Source: a virus
Direction: 5' to 3' (one strand)
UHGV virus genome: UHGV-0057547
DNA length: 64,000 nt
Part shown: piece by piece, positions 2,289 to 28,889 of the stretch
Numbering within the stretch: position 1 is the stretch's first letter
Layout of the letters: each line of letters begins with the position of its first letter
Position numbers and translations under genes: made by a program
The notes under the pieces: generated by a model
What the model was told of the DNA's origin: nothing
What the model saw: the letters and a program-made list of their open reading frames with translations, nothing else
Database searches by the model: none

Positions 2289-2451
2289 GTATATCACTCC
2301 TTTTATATTTTATCTATATTATAGACAAAATTTAGAAGAATATACAAAATGATAAAGATTTTTTATTTTTTATCTTATTTACTTATATTATACTACTGAT
2401 ATTATTAAAAGTCAATAAAAAAAGAGAGAAAATTTTCTCTCATTTTAAAAT

Positions 2452-3384
2452 CTATAAATCAAATATATTTATTTTTTGCATAGATTCTTGTATATCTTTA
2501 CGTTGTTGTATATAGAATTTTTGTGATGTTGAAATATTCGAATGTCCAAGCGTATCTTTTATTTCTTGTAAAGTAATATTTGGATTTTCTCCCATTTTTG
2601 TACCTATTGTATGTCTTACATTATGAAAATGAACTCTAGGAACTCCAGCTATATCGCAACAGTCATACCAAACATTTCTTATACCTTGCTCAGTTAATTT
2701 TTCGCCATTTCTATTTGTAAATAAATATTCTCTATTTGGATTATATAATACTAATTTTTTTATAAGTTCAGCAACTTCATTATTACAATTTGTACTACGA
2801 CCAATATGACCTTTATTACCTTTAGAACGTACCATTATTTTATTGTTATCTTCTAATTTTAAATCTTCTATTTTTATTCTACTCATTTCTCCAATTCTTA
2901 ATGCAGTTGAAAATACTAATTTTACAATTACTTTATTTCTTAAATTTATATAATTACTATGACAGTTAAATTCTTCTTTATCTGTTGCTTGTAATATTGC
3001 TTTTATAATATCATCACTAAATGCTTTATCTCCTTTATAATCATTTTCCCCTTTTTCATTAACTTTAGGAAATCTATATAGACAATTATCATCTAATAAT
3101 CCTTCATTGACTAAGAAATTATAAAAACTACTCATTTGTTTTATTTTTTTATTTATTGTTGCTATTGATATATCACTTTCATCTTTTTGTTTATCTACCC
3201 ATTTAAACCAAAATTCCTTATCCATATTAACAAATTCATTAACTTCATTTATTTTTTCATCTTTGACAAATTTTTGTAGTGTACTAACATAACTTTTAAT
3301 TGTAGCTTCACTTTTGTTTAATAAATTTAAATATTTCACATATTTAAAAATGCAATTATCCATACTCATATTTTTATCTAACAT
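2452..3384 (-). CDS. tyrosine recombinase / phage integrase
   Basis: ALRIGE Arg box, HFHNVRHT (HxxR) and LGHSNISTSQKFY (H..Y) catalytic motifs; start ATG 3384 after GGAGTGG. Confidence 0.7.
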   Translation of the reverse strand: MLDKNMSMDNCIFKYVKYLNLLNKSEATIKSYVSTLQKFVKDEKINEVNEFVNMDKEFWFKWVDKQKDESDISIATINKKIKQMSSFYNFLVNEGLLDDNCLYRFPKVNEKGENDYKGDKAFSDDIIKAILQATDKEEFNCHSNYINLRNKVIVKLVFSTALRIGEMSRIKIEDLKLEDNNKIMVRSKGNKGHIGRSTNCNNEVAELIKKLVLYNPNREYLFTNRNGEKLTEQGIRNVWYDCCDIAGVPRVHFHNVRHTIGTKMGENPNITLQEIKDTLGHSNISTSQKFYIQQRKDIQESMQKINIFDL

Positions 3385-3447
3385 ATAAACCACTCCTTTA
3401 TTTATTTATATAATAATTGTAACATAAAGTTTATATAATGTCAATCA

Positions 3448-3609
3448 TTATTTGAAAATTCTTTTTACTTTTATATTCCTTTCTTTACAATAAGGGCAAT
3501 ATGATATTTCGATTTTATAAATTTTATCTTCGGTATATAATTTATAATATGTTTTATCTTTTGCTATATAAGTTATTAGACAATCTTTACATCTTCTTAT
3601 ATTAAACAT
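3448..3609 (-). CDS. small zinc-ribbon protein (53 aa)
   Basis: Unlisted short ORF MFNIRRCKDCL...YCPYCKERNIKV with two CxxC pairs, RBS GGAGTGGGTG, own promoter and terminator. Confidence 0.4.
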   Translation of the reverse strand: MFNIRRCKDCLITYIAKDKTYYKLYTEDKIYKIEISYCPYCKERNIKVKRIFK

Positions 3610-3718
3610 TCAATCACCCACTCCTTAATTATTTATTTTATACTTATATTATACTATTGATATTATATAAAGTCAATAGAATTCATAAAAAAACTAGAGA
3701 AAATTTTCTCTAGTCATT

Positions 3719-4093
3719 TTACTTTAACAAATCTTCATTCTCATATATGTTTCCCACAACTTCAACATCACCAAAATACATATAAATATATAAACTATCT
3801 TCCCATTTCCCTTCATTTACAACACGATATTCACCATTGGTATATTTTACATATAAATTGGCTTCTCCATCGTCAAGTTTAACTTTTAATATATCACCTT
3901 CATATATTTCTTTTCCGTTTTTATCTTTTAAATTTGTATATTGCATTAATCTACAAACATATGAATACGTAGCTCTCCAACGTCTACATTCTTCATCTTC
4001 CATACCAACCTCATAATCATTTAATCCTATAAAATTAACAGTTGCCATTTCTTGTTTTTCAGTATCCCATGCTCTAAATTTAAATTCTCTCAT
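3719..4093 (-). CDS. hypothetical protein
   Basis: ORF track; start ATG 4093 (MREFKF) after GGTGATGAAT; flanked by a consensus promoter and a terminator. Confidence 0.5.
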   Translation of the reverse strand: MREFKFRAWDTEKQEMATVNFIGLNDYEVGMEDEECRRWRATYSYVCRLMQYTNLKDKNGKEIYEGDILKVKLDDGEANLYVKYTNGEYRVVNEGKWEDSLYIYMYFGDVEVVGNIYENEDLLK

Positions 4094-4105
4094 ATTCATC
4101 ACCTA

Positions 4106-4660
4106 TTAATAATTTCCTAAATCTTCTTTTAGATTTTTTATTATTTTCTCAAGAAATGCTAATTCTTTTGTTATATTTTCTCTTTCTACTTTTAATTCAC
4201 CCATTCTTTTCTTTTTACAACAAATTTCTAATCCAATTTCAGGATTAAAAATATCAGTTCTATGACATTTGGTTTTAAAAATATTGAAACTATTATCTAT
4301 CACTATTACTTCAGGATTATTTATTATCACCACTTTAGCCCATTCTCTATTCGTAATCCAAAACTTATTTAGAAAATCATAAGGACAATCATCACCTAGT
4401 TTATATATTTCCATTTTATTAATTTTTGTCATAGGTTCTAGCATGCTCTTGCTAAAGCAGTATGGATTATAATAATCATCAGAATCAAGTTTTATTATAT
4501 ATCTAATACGTTCTTCGTTTCTTGATATCCTTACGATTTCTCCTACTTTACCTAAAGTATCCTTCATGTTACTTATGAATTTACACCCATCGTCATAAAA
4601 TGTATCAACTATTAAGTCATTTTTAACTCTCACTTTATCTCCAATTTTGAATTTTTCCAT
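4106..4660 (-). CDS. hypothetical protein
   Basis: ORF track, 184 aa, tightly packed behind the upstream gene. Confidence 0.5.
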   Translation of the reverse strand: MEKFKIGDKVRVKNDLIVDTFYDDGCKFISNMKDTLGKVGEIVRISRNEERIRYIIKLDSDDYYNPYCFSKSMLEPMTKINKMEIYKLGDDCPYDFLNKFWITNREWAKVVIINNPEVIVIDNSFNIFKTKCHRTDIFNPEIGLEICCKKKRMGELKVERENITKELAFLEKIIKNLKEDLGNY

Positions 4661-4681
4661 TTTACCATCTCCTTTATTTTT

Positions 4682-5242
4682 TTAAGATAATTCTAAACAT
4701 TTATGTTTTATTTTTTTAACCGCTCTATTGAAAATTTGATTTACATTTTGTTTTGATAAATGTAATATTTTACCCATTTCCTCAAACGTATAACCAGCTA
4801 AGAACAATCTTATAATTTGTCCACTTCTTTCACTTATTAAATCAGCATATTTTATTATTTCTTTAACTAAATCTTTTTCTATAATTTTATCTTCCAAATT
4901 ATAATCATATTCTATTAATTCTAATAATGTTTTACTTTCTTCTTCATGAACAATTTTTCTATCCAAACTATCAACAGTTGCATCTCCTCTTCTTTTCATT
5001 GTATTTTTATTTTGATAAAATTTTTTACAACTCCATTTAATAGAATTTTCTATAAAAACAGATTTTCCCATTACTTCATCTAATTTATCTAGGTCTTTTA
5101 ATAGATTTAATATTATTTCTGATTTCAAATCTTCAAGACCAAAATAATTATTCTTTGCATTGTTATAATAAAACATTCTTGCATATTTATCTATCAGCAT
5201 TTCATAATCATTTATTATGTTAACCTTTAATTCATTATTCAT
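4682..5242 (-). CDS. sigma-70 family sigma factor (small ECF/TcdR-like)
   Basis: Region-2-like and C-terminal region-4 HTH (ILHLSKQNVNQIFNRAVKKI); start ATG 5242 after GGAGATGGGG; E1 structured element in the 5' leader. Confidence 0.55.
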   Translation of the reverse strand: MNNELKVNIINDYEMLIDKYARMFYYNNAKNNYFGLEDLKSEIILNLLKDLDKLDEVMGKSVFIENSIKWSCKKFYQNKNTMKRRGDATVDSLDRKIVHEEESKTLLELIEYDYNLEDKIIEKDLVKEIIKYADLISERSGQIIRLFLAGYTFEEMGKILHLSKQNVNQIFNRAVKKIKHKCLELS

Positions 5243-5294
5243 ATACCCCATCTCCATTTATAATTTTTATTTTTCTAATATGTATTCTACTATA

Positions 5295-5408
5295 GTTTCA
5301 ATGCTTACATTTAAGCTTCCCTATTCAACATATCCTCTTTCACCTAATGGCTACTTGAGTTTGTGTGATACTCCCAGGGCGTAAATTCGGGTTTGAACAT
5401 CCCTACAT
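5295..5408 (-). ncRNA. E element copy 1 (structured leader RNA, TnpB right-end / omega-RNA-like)
   Basis: ~115-nt element between the promoter (5444-5472) and the sigma gene start. Identical to copy 2 and ~80% to copies 3-6. Compensatory substitutions in two hairpins between copies. Confidence 0.5.
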
Positions 5409-5443
5409 ATTAATTTTTTATTTTTATTATCTTATTTACTTAT

Positions 5444-5472
5444 ATTATACTATTGCTATTATTAAAAGTCAA
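5444..5472 (-). promoter_or_regulatory. consensus sigma-A promoter (-35 TTGACT, 17 nt, -10 TATAAT)
   Basis: Reverse complement reads TTGACTTTTAATAATAGCAATAGTATAAT. Confidence 0.6.
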
Positions 5473-5482
5473 TAATTATTTA

Positions 5483-5509
5483 AAAAAATTAAGGAGAAAA
5501 TCTCTCCTT
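5483..5509 (-). terminator. intrinsic terminator (hairpin AAGGAGAGATTTTCTCCTT plus T-run)
   Basis: Perfect inverted repeat immediately after the stop of 5508..5756, followed by TTTTTTT on the minus strand. Confidence 0.55.
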
Positions 5510-5756
5510 AATCTTCATCAACAGTAAGTTTTGCATTAGGCATGAAAACTAAAACTAAAAACCAAAACAATCCGTTTAATCCATTGCTATCATTTAACAT
5601 AGGTGCTAGCCAATTTAACCAAGGAATACCATTGACATTTACATTAACTATGTCTAGTATCCAAATTACATAAATTGCCATCTTAACTAAACTAACTAAA
5701 GTATTAAATAAAAAACATATAAAAATATTTCTATATTTCATTCTCATCCTCTCCAA
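5508..5756 (-). CDS. small membrane protein
   Basis: ORF track; two hydrophobic segments; overlaps the upstream ORF by 26 nt, so the start is uncertain. Confidence 0.35.
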   Translation of the reverse strand: MERMRMKYRNIFICFLFNTLVSLVKMAIYVIWILDIVNVNVNGIPWLNWLAPMLNDSNGLNGLFWFLVLVFMPNAKLTVDED

Positions 5757-6120
5757 TCTCTTTTAAATAATTTCCAAACTCAATAAAAACTTTCAAATCT
5801 CTTAAAGATTCATCGATATAATTAGAAGTTTTTATACTTACTTTTTCTAAGTTTTCATTTTCACATCTTAATTTATCTATTTCATATTCAATTCTATCAT
5901 TCTTCTCATCAATTGGTTCAGAATAATATACATCAATTATATAGGGAACTTTATAATCAACTCTAATCTTCAATCCTTCTATCTTTCCATTTACAATATG
6001 ATTTTGTAAATGTTTAATAGCTTCTCTACCTATTGTAACCTTATTACAACGTTTACTATGTGTCATATTATATAATTTAATGTTAACTATTAATTCATCA
6101 TAATAACTATATTCCTTCAT
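5731..6120 (-). CDS. hypothetical protein
   Basis: ORF track, 129 aa. Confidence 0.45.
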   Translation of the reverse strand: MKEYSYYDELIVNIKLYNMTHSKRCNKVTIGREAIKHLQNHIVNGKIEGLKIRVDYKVPYIIDVYYSEPIDEKNDRIEYEIDKLRCENENLEKVSIKTSNYIDESLRDLKVFIEFGNYLKEIGEDENEI

Positions 6121-6132
6121 AATATCACCATC

Positions 6133-6918
6133 CTAATCAGCAAATTTAAAAGATACTTTCATATCAGCTTTAGTACAACTAGCTTGAGCATTATATTTTT
6201 TATTTAATAGATTATATTTTATTGTATATTTGTTACAACCTAAAACTTTACAAGCTATTAAATAATTGTCAAATACTTTATGATAACCATCATTATTAAA
6301 TACAATTACTTCTTTATCTTCTATTTTATCACTTTCATCTTCATAATCATATTCATTAATACTTAATTGTTCTTTATTGTTTATTAATTCTTTTCTTAAT
6401 TTCATTATTAATTGTTGCACTCTTTGTTTACTTATTTCCATTTTACAACCTATTTCCTCATAGTTATAACCATTCATAAGCATTATAACTATATCATATA
6501 ATCTTTTATCTTTTAAATTTTTTATATAATTTAATATTTCATTTCTATAAATACCTGTAAAATCATCTAATCTTCCAACAGTTCTATCTCTAACTTTTTC
6601 GGTATCTTCATCCATACCTTCATTTTCATGAACTTTTCTTTCTCCACCTTTTTGAACATATTTATATAAATCATTATTAACAAAACTTAACATTTTATTT
6701 CTAATTGATTTTACAGCCAAAGTACTAAATTTTCCTTTACTTTCATCATAAGTTTTAATGACATTATATAAAGTTATCATTCCAATTTGTTTTAAATCAG
6801 CATATACATCATATTCAGATACAGTTGTATAGAAAAATCTTTGTATTACCCAATCCACTAAACTTTCATTTTCTATTAACATTTTTTCTATTCTTATTTC
6901 ATTTTCAAATTTTTCCAT
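6133..6918 (-). CDS. sigma-70 family sigma factor
   Basis: Region 2 (DLKQIGMITLYNVIKTYDESKGKFSTLAVKSIRNKM) and region 4 (EISKQRVQQLIMKLRKEL) signatures. Confidence 0.65.
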   Translation of the reverse strand: MEKFENEIRIEKMLIENESLVDWVIQRFFYTTVSEYDVYADLKQIGMITLYNVIKTYDESKGKFSTLAVKSIRNKMLSFVNNDLYKYVQKGGERKVHENEGMDEDTEKVRDRTVGRLDDFTGIYRNEILNYIKNLKDKRLYDIVIMLMNGYNYEEIGCKMEISKQRVQQLIMKLRKELINNKEQLSINEYDYEDESDKIEDKEVIVFNNDGYHKVFDNYLIACKVLGCNKYTIKYNLLNKKYNAQASCTKADMKVSFKFAD

Positions 6919-7016
6919 CTTTCATATCCCCCATTCTTTATCATATAATAATTATATTACATTTTTTATCTATTGTCAACAATTATCACCAACTTTATTT
7001 TTTATTTTTTTTTACT

Positions 7017-7763
7017 TTATTCCCTCCATTCAAAATTTATTTTCTTATTTAAAGTTTTACTTTTAGCACTTTTCCTTAATCCTTGACATATTTTCCTAAT
7101 AGAGTTCTTATCAATGCCTAAATCTTCACTAGCCATTTGAAGATTATCATAATTTTTATAAAATTTTCCATCTATAAAAGCTACAACACTTCCTTTACTT
7201 TTCCTAATTTCATGTTTAATATTAAATTTTTCTTTTAAGTTTTCTTTTATAAAAAACATTTTTTTATTTATAATACGATAATTATTATTTAATATTTCAC
7301 TTATTTCTTTTCCGTTGTATCCTCTTAGCATATAGTAAAATATTATATAATAATCTCCACCTAAATTCTTTACATATTGTAAATACATTTCAATGTATAA
7401 AATTGTTTCGTCATCATAATCACCCAACATATCTTCAAGAGTTAACTTTTCATCTTCTTTAGTTTGTATATCTTCATTAAGTGATAAAATATTTTTATTA
7501 TTTATTGTATGTTTTTTATTAATATAGGTTATAATAGAATTGTAAATGCATTTACTACAATAACAAATAAAGGATTTCTCATTGTTTATATTGTCAATAG
7601 GTCTATAAGTCTTATATGCTTTTACAATAGCTATTCTACCTTCTTGTAATAAATCATCATAATCATTGCTATAAATGAAATTTGAAAAATGTCTTTTGAT
7701 ATTTGATTTAATCAGATATTCATATTTGATTACAACTTCATTTATATCAATTGCGTTCTCCAT
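7017..7763 (-). CDS. sigma-factor-like regulator
   Basis: Region-2-like DLLQEGRIAIVKAYKTY and a C-terminal HTH-like segment. Confidence 0.5.
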   Translation of the reverse strand: MENAIDINEVVIKYEYLIKSNIKRHFSNFIYSNDYDDLLQEGRIAIVKAYKTYRPIDNINNEKSFICYCSKCIYNSIITYINKKHTINNKNILSLNEDIQTKEDEKLTLEDMLGDYDDETILYIEMYLQYVKNLGGDYYIIFYYMLRGYNGKEISEILNNNYRIINKKMFFIKENLKEKFNIKHEIRKSKGSVVAFIDGKFYKNYDNLQMASEDLGIDKNSIRKICQGLRKSAKSKTLNKKINFEWRE

Positions 7764-7870
7764 TTTTCAATTCCCCCTTTATTACTTTATTTACTTATAT
7801 TATACTATCATTCTTATTAAAAGTCAATAATAAAAAAAATAAAAAAGGAGAAAATTTTCTCCTTACAAAT

Positions 7871-8185
7871 TTATAAATAAGTTATTTCTAATCCTAAATT
7901 TTTAGCTACTCCTATAATCTGATATACTTCTTCATCCCTTTCAGGAAGTACATAAACTTCATCAGCAAAGGTTAATATTTTTAATGAATAATTTATCAAC
8001 TCATCCTTATCAATGTCCTTAGAAAGCCAACCAACGGCTTTCAATGGACTTATATATAATATATGTTTCCTTCCATTCTTTAAATCATCCCTAATCAATT
8101 CTCTAATTAAGGATTCAATTGCTTTTTCTTGTCCTTCCGTATTACTACCAGTAATAAATATAACCTTATAATCATCTAACTTCAT
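7871..8185 (-). CDS. DUF4406-like (nucleoside 2-deoxyribosyltransferase-fold) protein
   Basis: IFITGS N-terminus and ADEVYVLP..LGLEI C-terminus resemble the DUF4406 pattern (CDAIYMLPGWE..LGLEI). Confidence 0.35.
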   Translation of the reverse strand: MKLDDYKVIFITGSNTEGQEKAIESLIRELIRDDLKNGRKHILYISPLKAVGWLSKDIDKDELINYSLKILTFADEVYVLPERDEEVYQIIGVAKNLGLEITYL

Positions 8186-8197
8186 TATATCATCCCC

Positions 8198-8848: not shown

Positions 8849-8878
8849 AATATCTTCTCCCCTTTTTATAATTTATTT

Positions 8879-9250: not shown

Positions 9251-9339
9251 AATCATCTCTCCCTTTTTATAATTTTTTATATTTATTTTAATACTTGATT
9301 GTTATATTTGTATTATTCTTCTTCTTAGCTTATCGGTTT

Positions 9340-9788: not shown

Positions 9789-9832
9789 ACCGAATATATC
9801 TTGTTGGTGATTATTATTCGGTTTTATTATAT

Positions 9833-18839: not shown

Positions 18840-18842
18840 TAG

Positions 18843-23142: not shown

Positions 23143-23256
23143 GTTTCAATGCTTGTAACAAGCTTCCCTATTCAACGTGTTCTTTTTCACTTTATAAGCT
23201 ACTCAAGTTTTTGTAACACTCCCAGGGCGTAAATTCGGAACTGAACTTTCCTACAT
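23143..23256 (-). ncRNA. E element copy 6
   Basis: Downstream of promoter TTGACTTTTAATAATAATAGCAGTATAAT; followed by two tiny ORFs and a terminator. Confidence 0.5.
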
Positions 23257-23385
23257 GTTATTTTTAATTTTTTATTTTATTTACCTATATTATACTGCTA
23301 TTATTATTAAAAGTCAATAAATATTTTCATTTTTTTATTTAATTTTCACAAAACTTTTTAACTTTCAGCAATAACTGAGGATTAA

Positions 23386-23736
23386 TTAAAATCCTCTATT
23401 TGGGAAAGATAGACTTCTACAGCCTATTATTCTTCCCTTATCATCTCTTACAGATTCATTTACCAAAGCTAAATCAGTTCTAGTTTTGCAAGCATTAGCA
23501 ACCATAGCAGATACAATAAGGATAGTATCAGCTTGTTGTGGAGGTAATCCTATAACATCACCAAAAGTATTGTCAGTTATAGGAATTTCTATACCATCAG
23601 CAATTATACTTCCTGCATCAGTAGTAGTTTGTGATACTCTTATTAAAGTTCCGGAAGCTGGTATGGTAAGTATAATATTATTATCACTATCCATTATATT
23701 AATATCATGAGGCGTACAATTTATTAATTTTTTCAT
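23386..23736 (-). CDS. hypothetical protein, compositionally atypical (G/A/T/S-rich)
   Basis: ORF track; GC visibly higher than surroundings. Confidence 0.45.
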   Translation of the reverse strand: MKKLINCTPHDINIMDSDNNIILTIPASGTLIRVSQTTTDAGSIIADGIEIPITDNTFGDVIGLPPQQADTILIVSAMVANACKTRTDLALVNESVRDDKGRIIGCRSLSFPNRGF

Positions 23737-23845
23737 GATATAAAACCCTCCTAAATATTCTCATTTTTTTATTTAATTCCTATGAAAGTTTTTAACTTTC
23801 AGTAACTGAAAAAGGAATTTAATTTTCCTTTTTCTCGCACATATT

Positions 23846-24145
23846 TTAGGATACATAAGCTACTTGCTCTACTATAAAATTTCTCTTTTCTAACTCATGA
23901 GTTATTTTTTCGCTTTCATTTTTTAGTTTTTTTCTAGCTAAATCATAGAAGTCCCAAAAATACATTAAATTTATATCTATTCTATAACCACTTATTATTA
24001 TTACTTGGTCTTCATATTCTAACTGTAAATCAGCACTTAAATAATCTTCTTCATTGACATATATTGCAACCCTTATATTATCATTATCTTTTCTATTTAT
24101 CATGTTTATAGCTTTTTCAATGCTATTATATCTTATTTTTTTCAT
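23846..24145 (-). CDS. hypothetical protein
   Basis: ORF track, 99 aa. Confidence 0.45.
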   Translation of the reverse strand: MKKIRYNSIEKAINMINRKDNDNIRVAIYVNEEDYLSADLQLEYEDQVIIISGYRIDINLMYFWDFYDLARKKLKNESEKITHELEKRNFIVEQVAYVS

Positions 24146-24274
24146 AATATAAAACCCTCCTAAAATTTTATTTATTAACTATATTATAGCATTTTAGCTA
24201 TATAAAGTCAATAAAATATTTAATTCTCATGAAAGTTTTTAACTTCCATGTAACAGAGGATTATAATTAATCCT

Positions 24275-24514
24275 CTATAAATAGTATTTGTAATTAATTA
24301 TGCTATTCACATAGCAACTTTCAGCAACTTTATATGCATTTAAGCTTCTGCTTATATGCACTCCAAAAGTTCTATTTGCTATTTTAACTGCTTTTGTTAG
24401 ACTTATTAATTCTTGTTCAACTGCATAGTTTAAACAAGGATATAATGCAATAATTGCACGTCTATTGCTTTCAGCTCTAACTATTTTTCCATTTACAACG
24501 AATTTTTTATTCAT
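24275..24514 (-). CDS. hypothetical protein
   Basis: ORF track, 79 aa. Confidence 0.4.
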   Translation of the reverse strand: MNKKFVVNGKIVRAESNRRAIIALYPCLNYAVEQELISLTKAVKIANRTFGVHISRSLNAYKVAESCYVNSIINYKYYL

Positions 24515-24594
24515 ATAAGACCCTCCTAAATATTTCCATTTTTTTATTTAATTTTCATGAAAGTTTTTAGCTTTCATGTTACAGAGGATTTTAA

Positions 24595-24774
24595 TTAATC
24601 CTCTACAAATATTTCTAAGATATCATCTTTAAAATCCCACGCTTCAAGATGCTTATAGCTTACATTATGTTCTTTTGCTTCTTCTCCAATGTCTAAATCA
24701 GATATTCCTTTTATGGTATATCTATTTACTAAATCTTTAAATCCTTCAGTTACTTTAAATTCATATCTTTTCAT
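24595..24774 (-). CDS. small hypothetical protein (59 aa)
   Basis: Unlisted ORF MKRYEFKVTEGFKDLVNRYTIKGISDLDIGEEAKEHNVSYKHLEAWDFKDDILEIFVED with RBS AGGAGGG. Confidence 0.35.
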   Translation of the reverse strand: MKRYEFKVTEGFKDLVNRYTIKGISDLDIGEEAKEHNVSYKHLEAWDFKDDILEIFVED

Positions 24775-24917
24775 AATACAAAACCCTCCTAAATATTTTC
24801 ATTTTTTTATTTAATTTTCATTTATATTATATACCAGTTTTTATATAAAGTCAATATATAATATAAAAAAATCCAAAGTTAGGTTTAAATTTAACTTTGG
24901 AATAACTGAAAAAGGAA

Positions 24918-25184
24918 CTAATAAGTTAAAATTCCTTTTTCTTTATAACTTGCCATTTTAAAACCTAAGTTTTCATTTAATGTTTCTATATTGTCTAATA
25001 TGAAAATCTTATCGTCATGATTCAAATATGATATATTATATTCTTTTTCATTGTTTACAGTCCATGATAAAATTATATTTTGTTCTTCCATAGCATTTAA
25101 TAGAATATTAATATTGTTATAATTCTTTTCCTCTGCATAGAAAACTTTTAAGTCTATTTTGTTTATTTCAATTTCTTTTTTCAT
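24918..25184 (-). CDS. hypothetical protein
   Basis: ORF track; real start the second ATG (MKKEIEIN), since the listed N-terminus translates the RBS. Confidence 0.45.
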   Translation of the reverse strand: MKKEIEINKIDLKVFYAEEKNYNNINILLNAMEEQNIILSWTVNNEKEYNISYLNHDDKIFILDNIETLNENLGFKMASYKEKGILTY

Positions 25185-25267
25185 ATATAAAACCCTCCTA
25201 AATATTTTCATTTTTTTAATTAATTCTCATGAAAGTATTTAACTTTCACGATTACAGAGGATTATAA

Positions 25268-25630
25268 TTAATCCTCTATTATTTCTTCATATTCTGCAAT
25301 TGTAACTTCATTGTATATTTCATTTACCATATACTCAAAAGCTAACCAACTTAAATTATTTGCATCTACTTCAAAATCAGGACTTAAATTTTCTTTTGTG
25401 CTATTGTATATTTCAAATATTTCTTCCATATGTTTAATGAAGAAACATTTTGTTTCATTAAAGTATATTAATTCTCCTATCATACCACTTGCACACCCAT
25501 ATTGAATTACTTCCTCTAAAAATGTTATTGGATTTTCATAATCATCAATATGATTAAGAATTATATCAATAACATTATCCTTTAATTCGCTTTCTCCATA
25601 CATATTTTCTAAAAAAGTATTTAATTTCAT
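25268..25630 (-). CDS. hypothetical protein, paralog family A
   Basis: LENMYGESELKDNVIDI..NETKCFFIKHMEEIF..NANNLSWLAFEYMV shared with 27621..27986. Confidence 0.5.
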   Translation of the reverse strand: MKLNTFLENMYGESELKDNVIDIILNHIDDYENPITFLEEVIQYGCASGMIGELIYFNETKCFFIKHMEEIFEIYNSTKENLSPDFEVDANNLSWLAFEYMVNEIYNEVTIAEYEEIIED

Positions 25631-25709
25631 AAAAACCCTCCTAAATATTTTCATTTTTTTAATTAATTCTCATGAAAGTATTTAACTTTCACGATTACAG
25701 AGGATTAAT

Positions 25710-26072
25710 TTAATCCTCTAAGCTATACGCCATACACATGTTAAAATCTTTATCCTTATATTGTTCTGAAAAATCAATAACTATGAATTCGCCATTATTG
25801 CTTTTATGTTTATACCATTTTGTACCAGTTAATCCATTTAGCCATGATTTTTTACCTTTGACATCACCTTCTAACATTTCAAATACTACTTCATTATTAT
25901 TATATCTAATACCTTTTCTCTTGCTTATATCTTTTGTTAATTTTACATATTTTTCATTTTCCATATTTAACAATTCATGAGCTTTTTCTAAGCTAACATA
26001 TCCAGTTAAAACTAATTTAGATATACTTTCTCTTAATTCTATCATACCTTGTTTTTTAGTTATTTTTTTCAT
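25710..26072 (-). CDS. hypothetical protein
   Basis: ORF track, 120 aa. Confidence 0.45.
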   Translation of the reverse strand: MKKITKKQGMIELRESISKLVLTGYVSLEKAHELLNMENEKYVKLTKDISKRKGIRYNNNEVVFEMLEGDVKGKKSWLNGLTGTKWYKHKSNNGEFIVIDFSEQYKDKDFNMCMAYSLED

Positions 26073-26190
26073 AATATAAACCCTCCTAAAATTTTATTTA
26101 TTAACTATATTATAGTATAACCACTATATAAAGTCAATAAATATTTTAATTATTACAAAAGTTTTTAACTTTTGTTACTGAAGAAGGATT

Positions 26191-26526
26191 TTATTTTCCT
26201 TCTTCTATGTCTTTATTGAATAAAGATTTTATTTTCTTAGAGAATTTTTTATTACATGTCACGTCATAAAATTTGAATTCATTGTAAAAAGTATATTCTT
26301 TTAATGCTTCAAGGTGTGAATTAATCGCTTGAGTTGTAGAACTTGTATCATAATTGCAATTATCAACAATTATTTTACTTTCAAGCGTATCAATTATCAT
26401 TATTATATTTTCATGATACATTAGATAGTAACTATCATTAATCTTGCTAAATGAATGATTCCCTATTTTCATTTTAATGTTACCTTCCATTATTCCTCTA
26501 AATAATTTTTCACTATATTTTCTCAT
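26191..26526 (-). CDS. hypothetical protein
   Basis: ORF track, 111 aa. Confidence 0.45.
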   Translation of the reverse strand: MRKYSEKLFRGIMEGNIKMKIGNHSFSKINDSYYLMYHENIIMIIDTLESKIIVDNCNYDTSSTTQAINSHLEALKEYTFYNEFKFYDVTCNKKFSKKIKSLFNKDIEEGK

Positions 26527-26644
26527 ATCATACCCTCCTAAAATTCATTTATTAACTATATAATAACATAGTGTTTATATAAAGTCAATAAATATTTTAA
26601 TTATTACCAAAAGTTTTTAACTTTTGGATAACTGAAGAAGGAAT

Positions 26645-26935
26645 TTATTTTCCTTCTTCTTTTCTAAATCTGAACTCAAATATATTTTCTTTTCTATGTC
26701 CTTTGATTAAATCAATCTCACTTTCGCCTTGTTGGTCTGTATTGTGGATTAAATTATATACTAAAAATCCAACTCTTGTATCGCCTTCATATTGAAAATA
26801 AACTAAGTCATTTTTAAAATCAATTCTTATTTTATTTATCCATATATTTTCATTTATTCTTTTTTCTCTTTTAATCATGTCAATTATTTTATCCATATTC
26901 TTTAATATCTCAAGTCTTATTTGTTTTCTATTCAT
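26645..26935 (-). CDS. hypothetical protein
   Basis: ORF track, 96 aa. Confidence 0.45.
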   Translation of the reverse strand: MNRKQIRLEILKNMDKIIDMIKREKRINENIWINKIRIDFKNDLVYFQYEGDTRVGFLVYNLIHNTDQQGESEIDLIKGHRKENIFEFRFRKEEGK

Positions 26936-27062
26936 ATAAAACCCTCCTAAAATTTATTTATTAACTTTATTGTAGTATAACCACTATATAAAGTCAATAA
27001 ATATTTTAATTATTACAAAAGTTTTTAACTTTTGTTACTGAAGAAGGAAAAAATCCTTCTTC

Positions 27063-27305
27063 TTATAAGTTTTCAACTTCTATGCTTGTAATTGTATTTC
27101 CATTGCAAGTTATTAAAAATCCTACTTTACTTTTAAAGGATTTTACAAATAATGCTTGAAAAAAATTACCCTTACAGTATGAACTTTTAGGACTATAGCC
27201 TATACTGTTCATGAAAGGTATAATTCTTTTTTCACCTTTTATAATGTTTATTTCTTTTATTTCCTCTTCACTAAATATTTTTTTCATTGATTCATAATTA
27301 TTCAT
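27063..27305 (-). CDS. hypothetical protein
   Basis: ORF track, 80 aa. Confidence 0.4.
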   Translation of the reverse strand: MNNYESMKKIFSEEEIKEINIIKGEKRIIPFMNSIGYSPKSSYCKGNFFQALFVKSFKSKVGFLITCNGNTITSIEVENL

Positions 27306-27378
27306 AATGTAAACCCTCCTAAATTTTTAATTCAGTAATAAAAATTACTGTTACTGAAGAAGGAAAAAATCCTTCTTC

Positions 27379-27558
27379 TTATAATGTATCTAAAAAGTTA
27401 TTAACAATTGATATTTCTTTATCGTTTAATAATATTTCAGTATGGCAATATTTAGAATTAATGTAACTATTTTCAAAATGTATATTGTTTTCATGAAGAA
27501 AATCTATTAATAACATAGTGTCCTTTCTATTTAGTTCTATATTATAATATTTTTTCAT
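27379..27558 (-). CDS. small hypothetical protein (59 aa)
   Basis: Unlisted ORF MKKYYNIELNRKDTMLLIDFLHENNIHFENSY... with RBS AGGAGGATT. Confidence 0.35.
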   Translation of the reverse strand: MKKYYNIELNRKDTMLLIDFLHENNIHFENSYINSKYCHTEILLNDKEISIVNNFLDTL

Positions 27559-27620
27559 AATAAAAATCCTCCTAAAATTTTATTTCAGTAATTTAAAATT
27601 ACTGTTACTGAAGAAGAGAA

Positions 27621-27986
27621 TTAAATCTCTTCTTCTTCTTCTTCTTCCATTGTTTCAACTTCATTATATATTTCACTTACCATATACTCAAAAGCTAACC
27701 AGCTTAAATTATTTGCGTTTACTTCAAAATCATCACTTAAATTGTCTTTAAGTTGGTTGTAAATGTCGAATATTTCTTCCATATGTTTAATGAAGAAACA
27801 TTTTGTTTCATTATAGTATATTAATTCAGGTACTGTACCACTAATACAACCATAATTCATAATGTCTTCTAAAAATCCTTTTGGTTCTTCATAGTCTTCA
27901 ATATGGTCTAAAAGGATATCAATAACATTATCCTTTAATTCGCTTTCTCCATATAAATTTTCTAACATATTATTTATTTTTTTCAT
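27621..27986 (-). CDS. hypothetical protein, paralog family A, with poly-Glu tail
   Basis: Paralog of 25268..25630; C-terminal EEEEEEEEI. Confidence 0.5.
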   Translation of the reverse strand: MKKINNMLENLYGESELKDNVIDILLDHIEDYEEPKGFLEDIMNYGCISGTVPELIYYNETKCFFIKHMEEIFDIYNQLKDNLSDDFEVNANNLSWLAFEYMVSEIYNEVETMEEEEEEEI

Positions 27987-28103
27987 AATAAAAACCCTCC
28001 TAAAATTTATAAATTTTATTTCAGTAACTCAAAATTTATATTTGAATTACTGTCACTGAAAAAGTATAGATTTTATAAAATCCCTTGTTTTTTCTTATAT
28101 TTT

Positions 28104-28436
28104 TTATTCTTCAATTTTAAAATTTTTAATCTCAAGTCCAAAATTTTCTTGTCCCTTTTTATTTGTGTATTTTCTTATTTTAGCTCTGAAACTTATTTTT
28201 TGTCCTTCTTGAATATTTTCTTTAAACATTTTTTTAGTAACGTTGCTTATCATATCGCATAAGCAGTGACAGCATATAAAATCATTATCTTTATATATAT
28301 TGTTGATAAGTGCTATTTTTCTGCACCCTCTTTTTTCTATTTTGTTGAAAGTTCCTTTGAATTCTACAATTGATTCATTGTATTTTTCAAGTCCTTTTCT
28401 ATATTCATATCTCCCACTTTTACTATTTACATACAT
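28104..28436 (-). CDS. hypothetical Cys-containing protein
   Basis: ORF track; CCHCLC cluster. Confidence 0.45.
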   Translation of the reverse strand: MYVNSKSGRYEYRKGLEKYNESIVEFKGTFNKIEKRGCRKIALINNIYKDNDFICCHCLCDMISNVTKKMFKENIQEGQKISFRAKIRKYTNKKGQENFGLEIKNFKIEE

Positions 28437-28889
28437 TTACAAAACCTCCCTTTTTTAAAACAAGAGATTTTATAAACTCTATACCTTTTCCGATTAACTG
28501 AAAAAGGATAAAATCCTTTTTCCGTTTTTAGGAGGAGGGAACATATTCAATTATATAATAGGATTTTTACCATTGCACTTCATACGCCCTTGTAACTGTT
28601 CAATGGCTGTTGGATAATAAAATCCAACTTTTGATTATTATCTTATAACCTTTTGAGTACTTTTCAGGAGTTCCGACTTAAAAAGTATGTTTTCGTAAGT
28701 ACTTATTAATCGTCGATTAACAGTTTACCTATATAACCTTTGGTAATAGGGTTTTTACCAAAAGCACCTTTTAAGTTTTTCCTCTTGTCAGTTGCTTAAA
28801 AGTTTTAAGATAATGCTTAGCTCTAAAAAATGCTAAGCTTCTATTATATACCTTATGCGTATAGCTTAAGGATTTTTTTTATTACTTTT

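What the first reader, a model, noticed from the sequence alone, without database searches (positions are those of the whole stretch)
2300..28440. At least 30 single-gene cassettes, each with the same consensus promoter and hairpin terminator
Almost every minus-strand gene between 2.3 and 28.4 kb has the same layout. First comes a promoter of the type TTGACTTTTAAT-N11-TATAAT, with exact -35 and -10 boxes and 17-nt spacing. Then a GGAG-type RBS and the ORF. Right after the stop codon comes a perfect hairpin followed by TCAGTT(T-run). The hairpins are GAGAAGAAA..TTTCTTCTC, GGAGAAAATTTTCTCC or GAGGATTAAT..ATTAATCCTC. The same promoter motif reappears on the plus strand for genes after 46.6 kb. 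Two hairpin-stem families segregate by region (GAGAAG type 11-13.6 kb, GAGGATT type 16-24 kb, GAAGAAGGA type 26-28 kb). This suggests block duplication of regulatory cassettes. It resembles the host-takeover modules of large virulent Bacillus phages and implies strong, individually insulated early transcription.
Basis: seen in the sequence. Interest (0 to 1): 0.55.

Follow-up and report, generated by a model that had tools for sequence, protein, structure and literature searches.

The report
Phage early cassettes hiding TnpB guides
The repeated promoter-and-hairpin units are real and frame the swappable early genes of a large gut phage, but six of them drive guide RNAs for a transposon-type RNA-guided nuclease (TnpB) whose guides match intact genes in sister phages.

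Summary
The repeats are real. There are 34 minus-strand TTGAC[AT]-N17-TA[TC]AAT promoters between 0.5 and 29.2 kb (0.3 expected for the stricter TTGACT/TATAAT search), and 34 short perfect hairpins sit right after stop codons.

"At least 30 insulated single-gene cassettes" overstates it. Only about 17 units are promoter, one ORF, hairpin. Only 12 of 34 hairpins have a U-tract. Ten ORFs have no promoter of their own and sit behind U-tract-less hairpins.

The sequence is 23% GC. Its relatives are 147-198 kb viral contigs, and related RNA units occur in human-gut metagenomes. It is not a Bacillus phage.

Comparison with two sister phages puts gene replacements just after the promoter leader and at the hairpins. 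That matches the PeSL promoter/stem-loop cassettes of T4-type phages.

The new result is that six "cassettes" are RAGATH-18 guide-RNA scaffolds of TnpB. One follows an apparently intact tnpB. Five are stand-alone and fused to cassette promoters. Each ends exactly at ...TGAAAC and runs into the 3' remnant of a resident gene. Sister phages keep that gene intact, with TTA or TTG directly 5' of the match (13 of 17, p=2e-13).

I infer, without a direct test, RNA-guided homing or exclusion between co-infecting phages.

The parts
479..29220 (-). Leftward early/accessory arm. It holds 34 consensus promoters, 34 post-gene hairpins, about 46 ORFs (mostly without a known family) and 6 reRNA scaffolds.
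479..507 (-). promoter TTGACT-17-TATAAT
2387..2415 (-). promoter (class TTGACTTTTAATAA); drives ORFs 1407-2297 and 523-1386
3416..3444 (-). promoter TTGACA-17-TACAAT; drives integrase-family ORF 2452-3393
3648..3676 (-). promoter
5444..5472 (-). promoter fused to stand-alone reRNA c5472
6951..6979 (-). promoter; drives sigma-like ORF 6133-6918 and two more ORFs
7799..7827 (-). promoter; drives sigma-like ORF 7017-7763
9489..9517 (-). promoter fused to stand-alone reRNA c9517
11033..11061 (-). promoter driving tnpB1 and its reRNA
11433..11461 (-). promoter
11874..11902 (-). promoter
12587..12615 (-). promoter; drives SprT-like ORF 11941-12537
13265..13293 (-). promoter
13518..13546 (-). promoter of the RNA-only cassette c13546
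15411..15439 (-). promoter of a two-gene operon (14240-15307, 13658-14236)
17027..17055 (-). promoter
17145..17173 (-). promoter of an 'empty cassette' (followed directly by a degenerate hairpin, no gene)
18084..18112 (-). promoter; drives antirepressor ORF 17221-18051
18959..18987 (-). promoter fused directly (5 nt after the -10 box) to reRNA c18987
19338..19366 (-). promoter
19890..19918 (-). promoter
20357..20385 (-). promoter
21407..21435 (-). promoter
22778..22806 (-). promoter; drives ORF6N-domain ORF 21650-22756
23289..23317 (-). promoter fused to reRNA c23317
24183..24211 (-). promoter
24826..24854 (-). promoter
26109..26137 (-). promoter (93% identical unit to P26997)
26560..26588 (-). 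promoter variant (-10 box TATTAT), found by the position-weight-matrix scan only
26969..26997 (-). promoter
28896..29220 (-). four tandem consensus promoters (-35 boxes at 29220, 29123, 29014, 28924) at the head of the arm
2424..7864 (-). hairpin family GAGAGAAAA/GGAGAAAA followed by a U-tract: 2424-2441, 3693-3714, 5488-5512, 7845-7864. These look like standard intrinsic terminators.
11080..13585 (-). hairpin family GAGAAGAAA..TTTCTTCTC followed by AGTTTTTTT: 11080-11100, 11480-11499, 11920-11940, 12633-12651, 13312-13331, 13565-13585. All have a U-tract.
15454..15482 (-). hairpin with U-tract after ORF 15490-16065
16139..25719 (-). hairpin family (A)GAGGAT..ATCCTC(T) followed by AGTTAT/GTAATC and no U-tract: 16139-16157, 16356-16374, 18619-18636, 19024-19045, 19412-19431, 19956-19977, 21581-21599, 23377-23396, 24255-24276, 24583-24604, 25256-25277, 25699-25719. 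Other hairpins in the same range: 17184-17216, 18116-18140, 20399-20430, 22975-23001, 23808-23834.
26180..28522 (-). hairpin family GAAGAAGGA..TCCTTCTTC followed by AGTAAC and no U-tract: 26180-26205, 26634-26659, 27040-27062, 27356-27378, 27610-27635. A related hairpin lies at 28500-28522.
9833..11014 (-). tnpB1, 393 aa. Closest solved structure is ISFba1 TnpB (8iaz, E=4e-68). The RuvC catalytic D/E/D positions are conserved. The four TAM-reading residues of ISFba1 are all replaced.
9654..9786 (-). tnpB1-linked RAGATH-18 reRNA: scaffold 9674-9786, guide TCCATTGTCTTTTTAGTAGT at 9654-9673
9562..9641 (-). two partial copies of the scaffold 3' end (9623-9641 GTGTAACAAGCACTGAAAC; 9562-9580 ATGTAACATATGCTAAAAC)
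5275..5406 (-). stand-alone reRNA c5472: scaffold 5295-5406, guide TATAGTAGAATACATATTAG. The guide is the 3' remnant of a small gene that is intact in L005. The unit lies upstream of the sigma-like ORF 4682-5257.
9320..9451 (-). stand-alone reRNA c9517: scaffold 9340-9451, guide AAACCGATAAGCTAAGAAGA. The guide segment differs completely from the orthologous unit in L004.
13365..13498 (-). stand-alone reRNA c13546: scaffold 13385-13498, guide GGAGTAATTCTAATTGAAAT. The guide is the 3' remnant of a 41-aa membrane ORF that is intact in L005. The unit ends at U-tract hairpin 13312-13331, so it is an RNA-only cassette.
18823..18954 (-). stand-alone reRNA c18987: scaffold 18843-18954, guide CTATTGACAGTAGAAGCAAA. 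The guide corresponds to codons 3-9 of the downstream ORF, which keeps its ribosome-binding site and ATG in L005.
23123..23254 (-). stand-alone reRNA c23317: scaffold 23143-23254, guide GCTATGAAGTTTCACCCTGA. The guide falls in an ORF reading ...KFHPD..., which resembles a J-domain motif (my reading, not scanned). The matching sequence is uninterrupted in L004 and L083.
3759..3782 (-). in the yopX gene: protospacer with 0 mismatches, flanked by TTTA, for a guide found in a metagenome relative (L150)
3990..4013 (-). in the yopX gene: protospacer (2 mismatches, flanked by ATTA) for the L004 reRNA that replaces yopX codons 1-26 in that phage
5252..5275 (-). protospacer with 0 mismatches, flanked by ATTA, for a second L150 guide
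16440..16463 (-). in ORF 16381-16983: protospacer (1 mismatch, flanked by TTTA) for the reRNA of contigs 152729 and 166499 (L080, L083)
39651..41008 (+). tnpB2 element (ORF 39744-40874, 44% identical to tnpB1). It is inserted between the Shine-Dalgarno sequence and the ATG of the T5orf172 gene. Its boundaries are ambiguous by 6 bp (GGAGAT). Its 3' RNA is a degenerate relative of RAGATH-18.
46646..46674 (+). exact consensus promoter upstream of the RecD-like helicase. Near-consensus sites also at 53268, 59882 and 62235.
4682..7763 (-). three sigma-factor-like genes (4682-5257, 6133-6918, 7017-7763) inside the promoter array

Best explanation
The stretch from 0.5 to 29.2 kb is the leftward early/accessory arm of a phage of about 150-200 kb. 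Related RNA units occur in human-gut metagenomes. A low-GC Firmicute host is inferred, not shown.

The arm is punctuated by about 34 near-identical host sigma-A-type consensus promoters and about 34 short perfect hairpins placed right after stop codons. Each hairpin, A/T-rich spacer, promoter and leader form a unit of about 100 bp. I propose these units do two jobs.
1. They give whatever gene lies between them ready-made expression signals.
2. Because they are repeated, they act as homologous joints at which genes are inserted, deleted and replaced between sister phages.
This is the logic of the PeSL cassettes of T4-type phages.

The arm is not a row of 30 insulated monocistrons.
- About 17 units are promoter, one ORF, hairpin.
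- Only the two hairpin families with a U-tract look like real terminators.
- The U-tract-less families must be read through, because promoterless genes lie behind them.

Six promoter-driven units are guide RNAs of the RNA-guided nuclease TnpB (RAGATH-18 reRNA).
- One follows tnpB1, whose catalytic residues appear intact.
- Five are stand-alone scaffolds fused to a resident cassette promoter.
- Each ends exactly at ...TGAAAC and continues into the 3' remnant of the gene it truncated. That remnant is the guide.
- Sister phages that keep the gene intact carry the matching sequence directly 3' of TTA or TTG.

Inferred step, probability about 0.4: early in infection, TnpB loaded with these RNAs cuts co-infecting or resident sister genomes at the intact alleles. 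The break is either lethal to that genome or is repaired from the reRNA-bearing genome. Repair would spread the unit and its flanking DNA, as in homing or marker exclusion.
For: Shown:
- Promoter and hairpin counts far exceed chance.
- The ordered map gives the layout of each unit.
- In 14 gaps between the window and two sister phages, the left break falls 32-69 nt after the -35 box in 10. The right break falls at a hairpin in 4 and within 4 nt of an reRNA 3' end in 3. Whole ORFs are swapped between conserved frames.
- One cassette is empty.
- Most ORFs have no known family. Three sigma factors, antirepressors, YopX and endolysins support a phage origin.
- Six RAGATH-18 hits score 57-68 bits against a gathering score of 44.9.
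- tnpB1 matches ISFba1 TnpB at E=4e-68 and keeps D/E/D.
- Across 18 distinct scaffolds, 11 of 24 pairs show compensatory changes and almost none are broken.
- Occupied and intact alleles were aligned at five loci.
- This RNA subfamily has 26 distinct guides in viral and gut-metagenome contigs: 18 promoter-fused, 4 tnpB-linked, 4 neither. My estimate from the promoter density is that about 5% of random sites in this arm would lie that close behind a promoter.
- TTA or TTG sits directly 5' of the guide match in 13 of 17 uninterrupted alleles (p=2.4e-13).
- The window itself carries 0-mismatch, TTA-flanked protospacers for foreign guides.
- All four TAM-reading residues of ISFba1 (K80, K83, N121, N122) are replaced in tnpB1 by M, V, H, Y.

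Suggestive:
- Tracts of 99.8-100% identity between the window and L004 lie next to shared reRNAs, against 83-95% elsewhere.

From the literature:
- Stand-alone omega RNAs work in trans and their role is unknown (PMC10691335).
- Definition of PeSLs (PMC2839356).
Against: - No transcript data exist. Promoter strength, timing and termination are inferred from consensus sequence only.
- The TTA/TTG motif differs from every published TAM of IS607-type TnpBs: AGGAG/GAGGG and TGGG. It could reflect the insertion preference of a transposase rather than what TnpB reads.
- No tnpA gene was seen next to either tnpB, or among the window ORFs scanned.
- tnpB1 was found only in the window and in contig 166499. 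Contigs 152729 and 160472 carry a tnpB2-type gene at the equivalent locus. In contig 159628 that locus holds only a promoter-reRNA unit, and a tnpB2 homologue lies near the helicase. Some carriers may therefore lack a cognate nuclease.
- Compensatory changes among scaffolds may predate their stand-alone state.
- Many sister alleles differ from the guide by 1-3 bases. ISFba1 TnpB is reported to be sensitive to mismatches.
- How a promoter-scaffold unit acquires a new guide is not explained.
- The high-identity tracts could come from ordinary phage recombination.
Confidence: 0.62

Rival explanations
1. This is a host-takeover module of a large virulent Bacillus-type phage, made of at least 30 strong, individually insulated monocistronic early cassettes that arose by block duplication.
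For: - Consensus sigma-A promoters occur at high density.
- The genes are small and mostly of unknown family.
- The hairpin families are regional and neighbouring units are more alike.
- Phage sigma factors in the same arm fit an early-to-middle transcription switch like that of SPO1 (SPO1 background in PMC13401047).
Against: - GC content is 23% and there is no nucleotide match to any deposited phage.
- Only about 17 strict single-gene units exist.
- 22 of 34 hairpins lack a U-tract, and ten promoterless ORFs lie behind such hairpins.
- Integrase-family and antirepressor genes are present.
- Six units are RNA genes.
- Host shut-off functions were not identified for any gene.
Confidence: 0.15
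2. The stand-alone reRNA scaffolds are inert scars. TnpB-carrying insertion sequences landed in early genes, and later deletions removed tnpA, tnpB and the upstream gene part. The leftover right ends happen to lie behind promoters because promoters are everywhere in this arm.
For: - Each unit truncates a resident gene.
- L004 carries promoter plus reRNA exactly where the window has promoter, tnpB1 and reRNA. This looks like a tnpB deletion.
- Partial right-end remnants exist at 9562-9641.
- Some carrier phages show no tnpB1.
Against: - No copy retains any tnpB or left-end fragment.
- All copies are full length from the 5' stem to ...TGAAAC, with pairs kept through compensatory changes.
- 18 of 22 stand-alone guides are promoter-fused and in the sense orientation, against my estimate of about 5% by chance.
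- The same promoter-scaffold unit sits at several different TTA/TTG junctions within one gene in different phages.
- The guide segment at c9517 is replaced while the flanks are 96% identical.
Confidence: 0.25
3. The U-tract-less hairpins (GAGGAT and GAAGAAGGA families with the conserved 3' AGTTAT/AGTAAC) are not terminators. They would be mRNA 3'-end stabilisers or processing sites. Alternatively they are DNA-level sites, either REP-like elements spread by a Y1 transposase or attC-like sites used by the three tyrosine recombinases at 0.5-3.4 kb.
For: - They have no U-tract, and promoterless genes lie behind them.
- A conserved flanking pentamer is shared across different stem families.
- Three tyrosine-recombinase-like genes sit at the end of the array.
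- Right-hand indel breakpoints fall at hairpins.
Against: - The stems are short, perfect and lack the bulged R/L-box architecture of attC sites (my knowledge of attC; stems).
- Most cassettes carry their own promoter, unlike integron cassettes.
- No Y1 transposase was found among the window ORFs scanned.
- Left-hand breakpoints lie after promoters, as expected for homologous exchange in conserved frames.
Confidence: 0.2

Closest known systems
PeSL (promoter-early stem-loop) mobile regulatory cassettes of T4-type phages (Arbiol et al. 2010, PMC2839356; Comeau et al. 2014, PMC4122927)
   Same: - A composite intergenic unit of about 100 bp holds a strong sigma-70-type promoter, an A/T-rich region and a stem-loop.
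- The units are concentrated in a region rich in genes of unknown family.
- Differences between close relatives are insertions, deletions and replacements bounded by the units.
   Different: - The phage lineage and host phylum are different, and the motif sequences are unrelated (stems GAGAAG/GAGGAT/GAAGAAGGA rather than GGGG..CCCC).
- Here the hairpin always precedes the promoter and abuts the stop codon.
- Mini-circles and promoter or terminator activity are untested here.
- Some units here drive guide RNAs.
SPO1 host-takeover module and other clusters of strong early promoters (T7 A1-A3, T5)
   Same: - Many small early genes lie behind host-sigma consensus promoters.
- Phage sigma factors are encoded for the next transcription stage.
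- Tandem strong promoters stand at the head of the arm (28896-29220).
   Different: - No sequence relationship was found.
- GC content is 23%.
- Host shut-off functions are not identified.
- Integrase and antirepressor genes are present.
- The SPO1, T7 and T5 architecture is recalled from my own knowledge. It was not compared here.
RAGATH-18 reRNA with IS607-type TnpB (Ren et al. 2024, PMC11061315; PDB 8iaz)
   Same: - The RNA matches the Rfam family above its gathering score.
- The scaffold lies downstream of, and does not overlap, tnpB1.
- The guide follows the scaffold 3' end.
- tnpB1 resembles ISFba1 TnpB and keeps the RuvC catalytic triad.
   Different: - Five of the six copies have no adjacent tnpB and have their own promoter.
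- The 3' flank after the Rfam core is about 22 nt, against 64 nt in ISFba1.
- The motif 5' of targets is TTA/TTG, not AGGAG/GAGGG.
- The TAM-reading residues are replaced.
- No tnpA is seen.
Stand-alone omega RNAs of OMEGA systems (Altae-Tran et al. 2021, as summarised in PMC10691335)
   Same: - Guide-RNA scaffolds lie without an adjacent effector in a genome that also encodes a compatible effector.
- They provide additional target sites.
   Different: - Here they sit in a phage, each fused to a consensus early promoter.
- Each truncates a resident gene whose remnant is the guide.
- Intact alleles are found in sister phages, which suggests a role. That paper states the role of stand-alone omega RNAs is unknown.
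Free-standing homing endonucleases of T-even phages (SegF, SegB, Mob) and 'transposon non-restorative homing' (review PMC13565253)
   Same: The proposed outcome is the same: a co-infecting relative is cut at an allele that the donor lacks, followed by co-conversion or exclusion of flanking markers.
   Different: - Recognition here would be by RNA guides, several per genome and spaced about 4-5 kb apart, not by protein.
- This is untested.

Membership tests
PeSL-type regulatory cassettes | Composite intergenic unit with a sigma-70-type promoter, an A/T-rich region and a stem-loop | tested here: met
   34 promoters and 34 hairpins. The hairpin, spacer, promoter and leader are seen together in the intergenic gaps.
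PeSL-type regulatory cassettes | Concentrated in a variable region rich in genes of unknown family | tested here: met
   About half of the 30 ORFs of this arm that were scanned against Pfam had any hit. The arm is mosaic when compared with sister phages.
PeSL-type regulatory cassettes | Indels and replacements between close relatives are bounded by the units | tested here: met
   of 14 gaps, 10 left breaks fall 32-69 nt after a -35 box, 4 right breaks fall at hairpins and 3 at reRNA 3' ends.
PeSL-type regulatory cassettes | Promoter and terminator activity, and mini-circle formation, shown experimentally | not testable with these tools
   Needs reporter fusions, inverse PCR and transcript mapping.
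PeSL-type regulatory cassettes | Member of the T4-like phages, or motif homology (GGGG..CCCC stem) | tested here: not met
   The stems differ. There is no DNA match to deposited phages. The nearest proteins are from SPbeta-like phages and Clostridium plasmids. This is an analogue, not a homologue.
Sigma-A/sigma-70 promoters | TTGACA-like -35 box, 17-nt spacer, TATAAT-like -10 box | tested here: met
   Transcription starts are not testable here.
Intrinsic (Rho-independent) terminators | Stable stem-loop followed directly by a U-tract | tested here: inconclusive
   Met by 12 of 34 hairpins (2.4-7.9 kb, 11.0-13.6 kb, 15482, 23001). Not met by 22 of 34.
RAGATH-18 (RF03064) / TnpB reRNA | Covariance-model score above the Rfam gathering threshold | tested here: met
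   Six hits at 57.3-68.4 bits against a threshold of 44.9.
RAGATH-18 (RF03064) / TnpB reRNA | Conserved secondary structure with covariation | tested here: met
   18 distinct copies and 24 pairs, of which 11 show both-side changes.
RAGATH-18 (RF03064) / TnpB reRNA | Lies directly downstream of an IS607-type tnpB | tested here: inconclusive
   True for 1 of 6 copies in the window (9674-9786, after tnpB1). The other five follow a promoter.
RAGATH-18 (RF03064) / TnpB reRNA | G-rich TAM (AGGAG/GAGGG, or TGGG) 5' of the target | tested here: not met
   Uninterrupted alleles show TTA or TTG in 13 of 17. The tnpB2 family does sit after AGGGG/GGGGGG.
RAGATH-18 (RF03064) / TnpB reRNA | Element carries a serine-recombinase tnpA | tested here: not met
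   No ORF lies between the promoter and tnpB1. The ORFs scanned across the window gave no resolvase or Y1 transposase hit. Not every small ORF was scanned.
RAGATH-18 (RF03064) / TnpB reRNA | RNA binds TnpB and guides DNA cleavage | not testable with these tools
   Needs RNA immunoprecipitation sequencing, a TAM-library assay and interference assays.
Stand-alone omega RNAs | Scaffold without an adjacent effector or transposase, in a genome that also encodes a compatible effector | tested here: met
   Five stand-alone copies plus tnpB1 with a near-identical scaffold in the same 64 kb.
SPO1-type host-takeover module | Relatedness to SPO1 or Herelleviridae and their host shut-off genes | tested here: not met
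   No megablast match in 50,697 phage records. GC content is 23%. Protein-level comparison with SPO1 gp37-60 was not done.
Integron cassette array | Promoterless cassettes ending in long imperfect attC sites, next to an intI/attI/Pc platform | tested here: not met
   Most cassettes carry their own promoter. The hairpins are perfect, with 7-14-bp stems. The tyrosine recombinases at 523-3393 are of the MrpR/phage-integrase type.

The most novel reading that the evidence does not exclude
A family of large human-gut phages carries a natural multiplexed guide-RNA set. One TnpB gene is accompanied by five or more separately promoted, full-scaffold guide RNAs. Each guide is derived from a gene the unit has truncated, and each is aimed at the intact allele in sister phages, next to a T-rich TTA/TTG motif not previously reported for RAGATH-18-type TnpBs.

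Different sister phages carry different guide sets that target one another. This would be RNA-guided inter-phage warfare, or a gene drive. It would also give the hitherto unexplained stand-alone omega RNAs a biological role, and it would be a possible stepping stone between a one-guide transposon nuclease and multi-guide CRISPR-like systems.
Probability: 0.38. Interest if true: 0.85.

Novelty: new variant of a known kind. Interest (0 to 1): 0.66.

Why it matters
The promoter/hairpin architecture alone extends the PeSL idea to a very different phage. PeSLs are repeated regulatory units that double as recombination joints for gene shuffling, and they were described in T4-like phages of Gram-negative hosts. 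Here the same logic appears in a large low-GC gut phage. That is useful but not surprising.

The embedded guide RNAs matter more. The role of stand-alone omega/reRNAs is stated to be unknown (PMC10691335). This locus offers a concrete, testable case:
- defined promoters;
- defined scaffold ends;
- 26 natural guides;
- natural target alleles in sister phages;
- a predicted non-canonical TAM (TTA/TTG).

If confirmed, it would show TnpB used as a multi-guide weapon or gene drive between phages. It would also supply a compact T-rich-TAM nuclease with natural trans-acting guides.

Tried and rejected
- Megablast of 17.7 kb against phage records found nothing.
- An exact-protein look-up of the helicase found nothing.
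- A scan of genome contigs with the helicase gave only an irrelevant 24% hit, so the host stays unidentified.
- No tRNA genes were found.
- I looked for second matches of the six guides inside the window and found none with up to 3 mismatches, so there is no self-targeting.
- I looked for the published AGGAG/GAGGG TAM beside the targets. It overlaps the junction at one site only and is not general.
- I first thought a TTA preceded the left end of the tnpB2 element. Alignment with the empty site in L002 showed the junction is AAAGGGG|AGAT, which is G-rich.
- Rfam in E-value mode on the tnpB2 3' region gave no RAGATH-18 hit. Alignment of homologues shows a degenerate relative.
- An attempt to define the left end and TAM of tnpB1-type elements from loci L006-L013 was inconclusive, because there were too few independent contexts.
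- The three partial scaffold-end repeats after tnpB1 were considered as a proto-CRISPR array. They look like duplicated or nested right-end remnants with related 'spacers', so I do not claim an array.
- Integron-like and REP/RAYT-like readings of the hairpins were considered and ranked low (see rival explanations).
- Mismatch positions between guides and sister alleles, compared by eye, show no obvious bias toward the TAM-proximal end.

Full report
**1. Observation**

The promoter motif is real.
- TTGACT-N16-18-TATAAT occurs 16 times against 0.30 expected.
- Allowing TTGAC[AT] and TA[TC]AAT gives 33 minus-strand sites from 479 to 29220. All but one have a 17-nt spacer.
- A position-weight matrix (PWM) built from these sites adds one more at 26588. 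It finds only four plus-strand sites: 46646 is exact, and 53268, 59882 and 62235 are near-consensus.
- Conservation extends into the spacer (TTTAATAA / ATAGATAA) and the leader (ATAAGTAAATAA).

The hairpins are real too.
- The minus strand of the first 30 kb holds 36 perfect hairpins, against 0-3 in shuffles.
- Of these, 34 are intergenic and abut or overlap stop codons. Their folding energies run from -7.2 to -14.5 kcal/mol.
- Neighbouring promoter units are more alike than distant ones: identity is 0.51 below 3 kb and 0.45 above 10 kb, with Spearman p=2e-5. P26997 and P26137 are 93% identical.

The count and the layout are overstated. Ordering all features gives the following.
- About 17 units are promoter, one ORF, hairpin.
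- There are operons of two or three genes.
- One cassette is empty: promoter P17173 is followed at once by a degenerate hairpin.
- Ten ORFs have no promoter. They sit in gaps of 21-117 nt filled by a hairpin, a second A/T hairpin and a ribosome-binding site.
- Only 12 of 34 hairpins have a U-tract.
- The GAGGAT and GAAGAAGGA families are followed by AGTTAT, AGTAAC or GTAATC. Transcription must pass through them, or the genes behind them would be silent.

**2. What the sequence is**

- GC content is 23%, with a strand-skew switch near 29 kb.
- There is no nucleotide match in deposited phages.
- The RecD-like helicase (46625-49018) has only 26-30% relatives, in SPbeta-like phages and about 200-kb Clostridium botulinum plasmids.
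- Close relatives at 93-98% protein identity are IMG/VR contigs of 174-198 kb. A further relative is a 147-kb contig.
- Related RNA units occur in human-gut metagenome contigs.
- The left arm encodes three tyrosine-recombinase-like proteins, YopX, three sigma-factor-like proteins, a SprT-like protein, ANT/ORF6N antirepressors and DUF7222 paralogues. About half of the 30 ORFs scanned have no known family.
- The right part holds endolysins, an HNH endonuclease and a T5orf172 protein.

I conclude that this is the early/accessory arm of a large phage of a low-GC host. It is not a Bacillus phage, and a virulent lifestyle is not shown.

**3. The units are recombination joints**

Loci L004 and L005 come from two sister phages and cover window positions of about 3.3-26.1 kb.
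- In 14 gaps of the collinear alignment, 10 left breaks lie 32-69 nt after a -35 box, that is, just after the leader.
- Of the right breaks, 4 lie at a hairpin and 3 lie within 4 nt of the 3' end of an RNA scaffold.
- Whole ORFs are exchanged between conserved frames. Examples are 24142-23835, 20328-19961 and 17140-16164.
- One 1.9-kb block of two cassettes is absent from L005.

These features match three defining traits of the PeSL cassettes of T4-type phages: a composite promoter plus stem-loop, location in a region rich in genes of unknown family, and indels bounded by the motifs (PMC2839356; PMC4122927). The motif sequences and the phage lineage differ, so this is an analogue and not a family member.

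**4. Six 'cassettes' are guide RNAs**

Rfam finds six RAGATH-18 RNAs, all on the minus strand. RAGATH-18 is the scaffold of the guide RNA (reRNA) of IS607-type TnpB nucleases (PMC11061315).
- One copy (9674-9786) follows a 393-aa TnpB, tnpB1 (9833-11014). This protein matches ISFba1 TnpB (8iaz) at E=4e-68 and keeps the RuvC catalytic D/E/D residues.
- The other five copies each start 5-38 nt after the -10 box of a cassette promoter.
- All six share a scaffold of about 112 nt, from (A/G)TAGGAAAG to ...A[CT]TGAAAC. They lose all similarity immediately after GAAAC.
- Among 18 distinct copies from the window and its relatives, 11 of 24 base pairs keep pairing through changes on both sides. Almost none are broken.

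**5. Occupied and intact alleles**

L005 has none of these RNAs. L004 has six. At each site, the phage without the RNA carries an intact small gene. The phage with the RNA has the resident promoter and leader, then the scaffold, then the 3' part of that gene.

| Unit | What the RNA-free allele shows |
|---|---|
| c18987 | L005 keeps the ribosome-binding site and ATG, then CTATTAACAATAGAACC; the guide is CTATTGACAGTAGAAGC |
| c13546 | the guide is the 3' part of a 41-aa membrane ORF |
| c5472 | the guide is the 3' end of a small ORF (about 90 aa) |
| c23317 | the guide falls in an ORF reading ...KFHPD...; I read this as a J-domain-like motif but did not scan the ORF; the sequence is uninterrupted in L004 |
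| L004 unit in yopX | the unit replaces yopX codons 1-26; the window is the intact allele |

- At c9517 the flanks are 96% identical between the window and L004, but the guide segment is entirely different.
- Where the window has promoter, tnpB1 and reRNA, L004 has promoter and reRNA only.

**6. How general this is, and a motif beside the targets**

- Pattern scans of viral and metagenome contigs yield 26 distinct guides for this scaffold subfamily. Of these, 18 are promoter-fused, 4 are tnpB-linked and 4 are neither.
- From the promoter density in this arm, I estimate that about 5% of random sites would lie that close behind a promoter.
- I searched every guide against all loci. In the best-matching uninterrupted allele, the three bases 5' of the match are TTA (7), TTG (6) or other (4). 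That is 13 of 17 against a background of 0.06, p=2.4e-13. An earlier count gave TTA at 7 of 8 loci.
- The same gene is joined to the scaffold at different TTA/TTG sites in different phages. There are three junctions in the c5472 gene and two in yopX.
- The window itself holds protospacers for foreign guides:
  - 3759-3782 (0 mismatches, TTTA)
  - 5252-5275 (0 mismatches, ATTA)
  - 16440-16463 (1 mismatch, TTTA)
  - 3990-4013 (2 mismatches, ATTA)

**7. Is TTA/TTG a plausible TAM?**

- Published TAMs for IS607-type TnpBs are G-rich: AGGAG/GAGGG and TGGG.
- In ISFba1 the TAM bases are read by K80, K83, N121 and N122. In the alignment these positions are M, V, H and Y in tnpB1. A different TAM is therefore plausible.
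- The second TnpB, tnpB2 (39744-40874), is 44% identical to tnpB1. It keeps the lysine equivalent to K83.
- The tnpB2 element is a clean insertion. The empty site in L002 reads AAAGGGG|AGATAGATATG.
- Three independent tnpB2-family insertions sit after AGGGG or GGGGGG, between a Shine-Dalgarno sequence and its ATG.
- The RNA 3' of tnpB2 is a degenerate relative of RAGATH-18 that Rfam does not detect.
- tnpB1 therefore looks like the cognate nuclease of the stand-alone RNAs. It was found only in the window and in contig 166499. Contigs 152729 and 160472 carry a tnpB2-type gene at the equivalent locus. In contig 159628 that locus holds only a promoter-reRNA unit, and a tnpB2 homologue lies near the helicase.

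**8. Mechanism**

Shown:
- the architecture and its statistics;
- the breakpoints relative to promoters and hairpins;
- the identity and structural conservation of the RNA;
- promoter fusion and the precise 3' end of the scaffold;
- guides that match intact sister alleles next to TTA or TTG.

Inferred:
- the promoters are early and strong;
- the U-tract hairpins terminate transcription, and the other hairpins stabilise or attenuate;
- TnpB loaded with these RNAs cuts sister genomes at intact alleles, causing exclusion or homing.

The identity profile between the window and L004 has tracts of 99.8-100% beside shared reRNAs (4500-6000, 8500-9000, 12500-13000), against 83-95% elsewhere. This fits co-conversion but does not prove it.

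Stand-alone omega RNAs are known and work in trans, but their role is stated to be unknown (PMC10691335). A 2026 review lists homing into co-infecting phages as a conceptual class (PMC13565253). My literature searches found no report of promoter-driven multi-guide reRNA sets in phages.

**9. Verdict**

- The repeats are real, and they are best explained as PeSL-like portable regulatory joints of a phage early arm. This is a new member of a known kind.
- The claim of at least 30 insulated monocistrons and the link to Bacillus phages are not supported.
- The embedded stand-alone TnpB guide RNAs, with a T-rich motif beside their targets and reciprocal targets among sister phages, are a new variant of a known kind. 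They are the part worth following up.

Noticed in passing
window 29300-32500: About 3 kb has no ORF of 70 aa or more. It is packed with TGTATAC/ATTGTATACA-type repeats and 'TATGAACAGTCACTCATAT' repeats. It lies at the cumulative GC-skew minimum, between the two diverging gene arms. It is a candidate replication origin or partition region.
   Followed up: partly
window 28440-29220 (-): Four tandem consensus promoters with a period of about 100 bp (28896-29220) are followed by an untranslated leader of about 450 nt before ORF 28104-28436. The leader has several local hairpins and no Rfam match.
   Followed up: partly
window 17056-17173 (-): An 'empty cassette': promoter P17173 is followed directly by a degenerate GAGGAT-type hairpin and then the next promoter, with no gene. 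L005 has 1.7 kb of other genes at this place.
   Followed up: partly
window 39651-41008 (+): A second TnpB element (tnpB2) is inserted between the Shine-Dalgarno sequence and the ATG of a T5orf172/DUF4041 gene. The site is empty in L002. The sister phage 163643 carries a different TnpB, 34% identical, at the same place.
   Followed up: yes
window 9562-9641 (-): Two partial copies of the last ~19 nt of the reRNA scaffold follow the tnpB1 guide, and the intervening segments are related to each other. L004 has a similar 11-nt remnant 2 nt after a scaffold end. These could be nested right-end scars or an incipient repeat-spacer arrangement.
   Followed up: partly
window 33638-34684 (+): An IS1595-like DDE transposase gene lies in the region between the arms.
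   Followed up: no
window 44201-46543 (-): A 780-aa ORF lies in a 34% GC island. It has internal DNA repeats (44.5-46 kb) and five matched stretches to phrog_25468. Its function is unknown.
   Followed up: no
window 15308-15410 (-): The leader of about 100 nt after promoter P15439 contains a CCCCC run and TATAATATAATATATAATATAAT repeats. It is unlike the other leaders.
   Followed up: no
window 25268-25654 and 27621-27986 (-); 17221-18051 and 21650-22756 (-): Paralogous gene pairs lie inside the array: two similar ORFs (one scanned, DUF7222) and two ORF6N antirepressors with near-identical N-termini. This fits cassette duplication.
   Followed up: no
L081 5372-5900: In contig 160472 an reRNA sits after a complete 110-aa ORF. 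Its guide is the 3' end of a different allele of that same ORF, so the gene's C-terminus is present twice (ENRILEELNIDNK* and ENKILKELGDEK*). This looks like a recombination footprint.
   Followed up: partly
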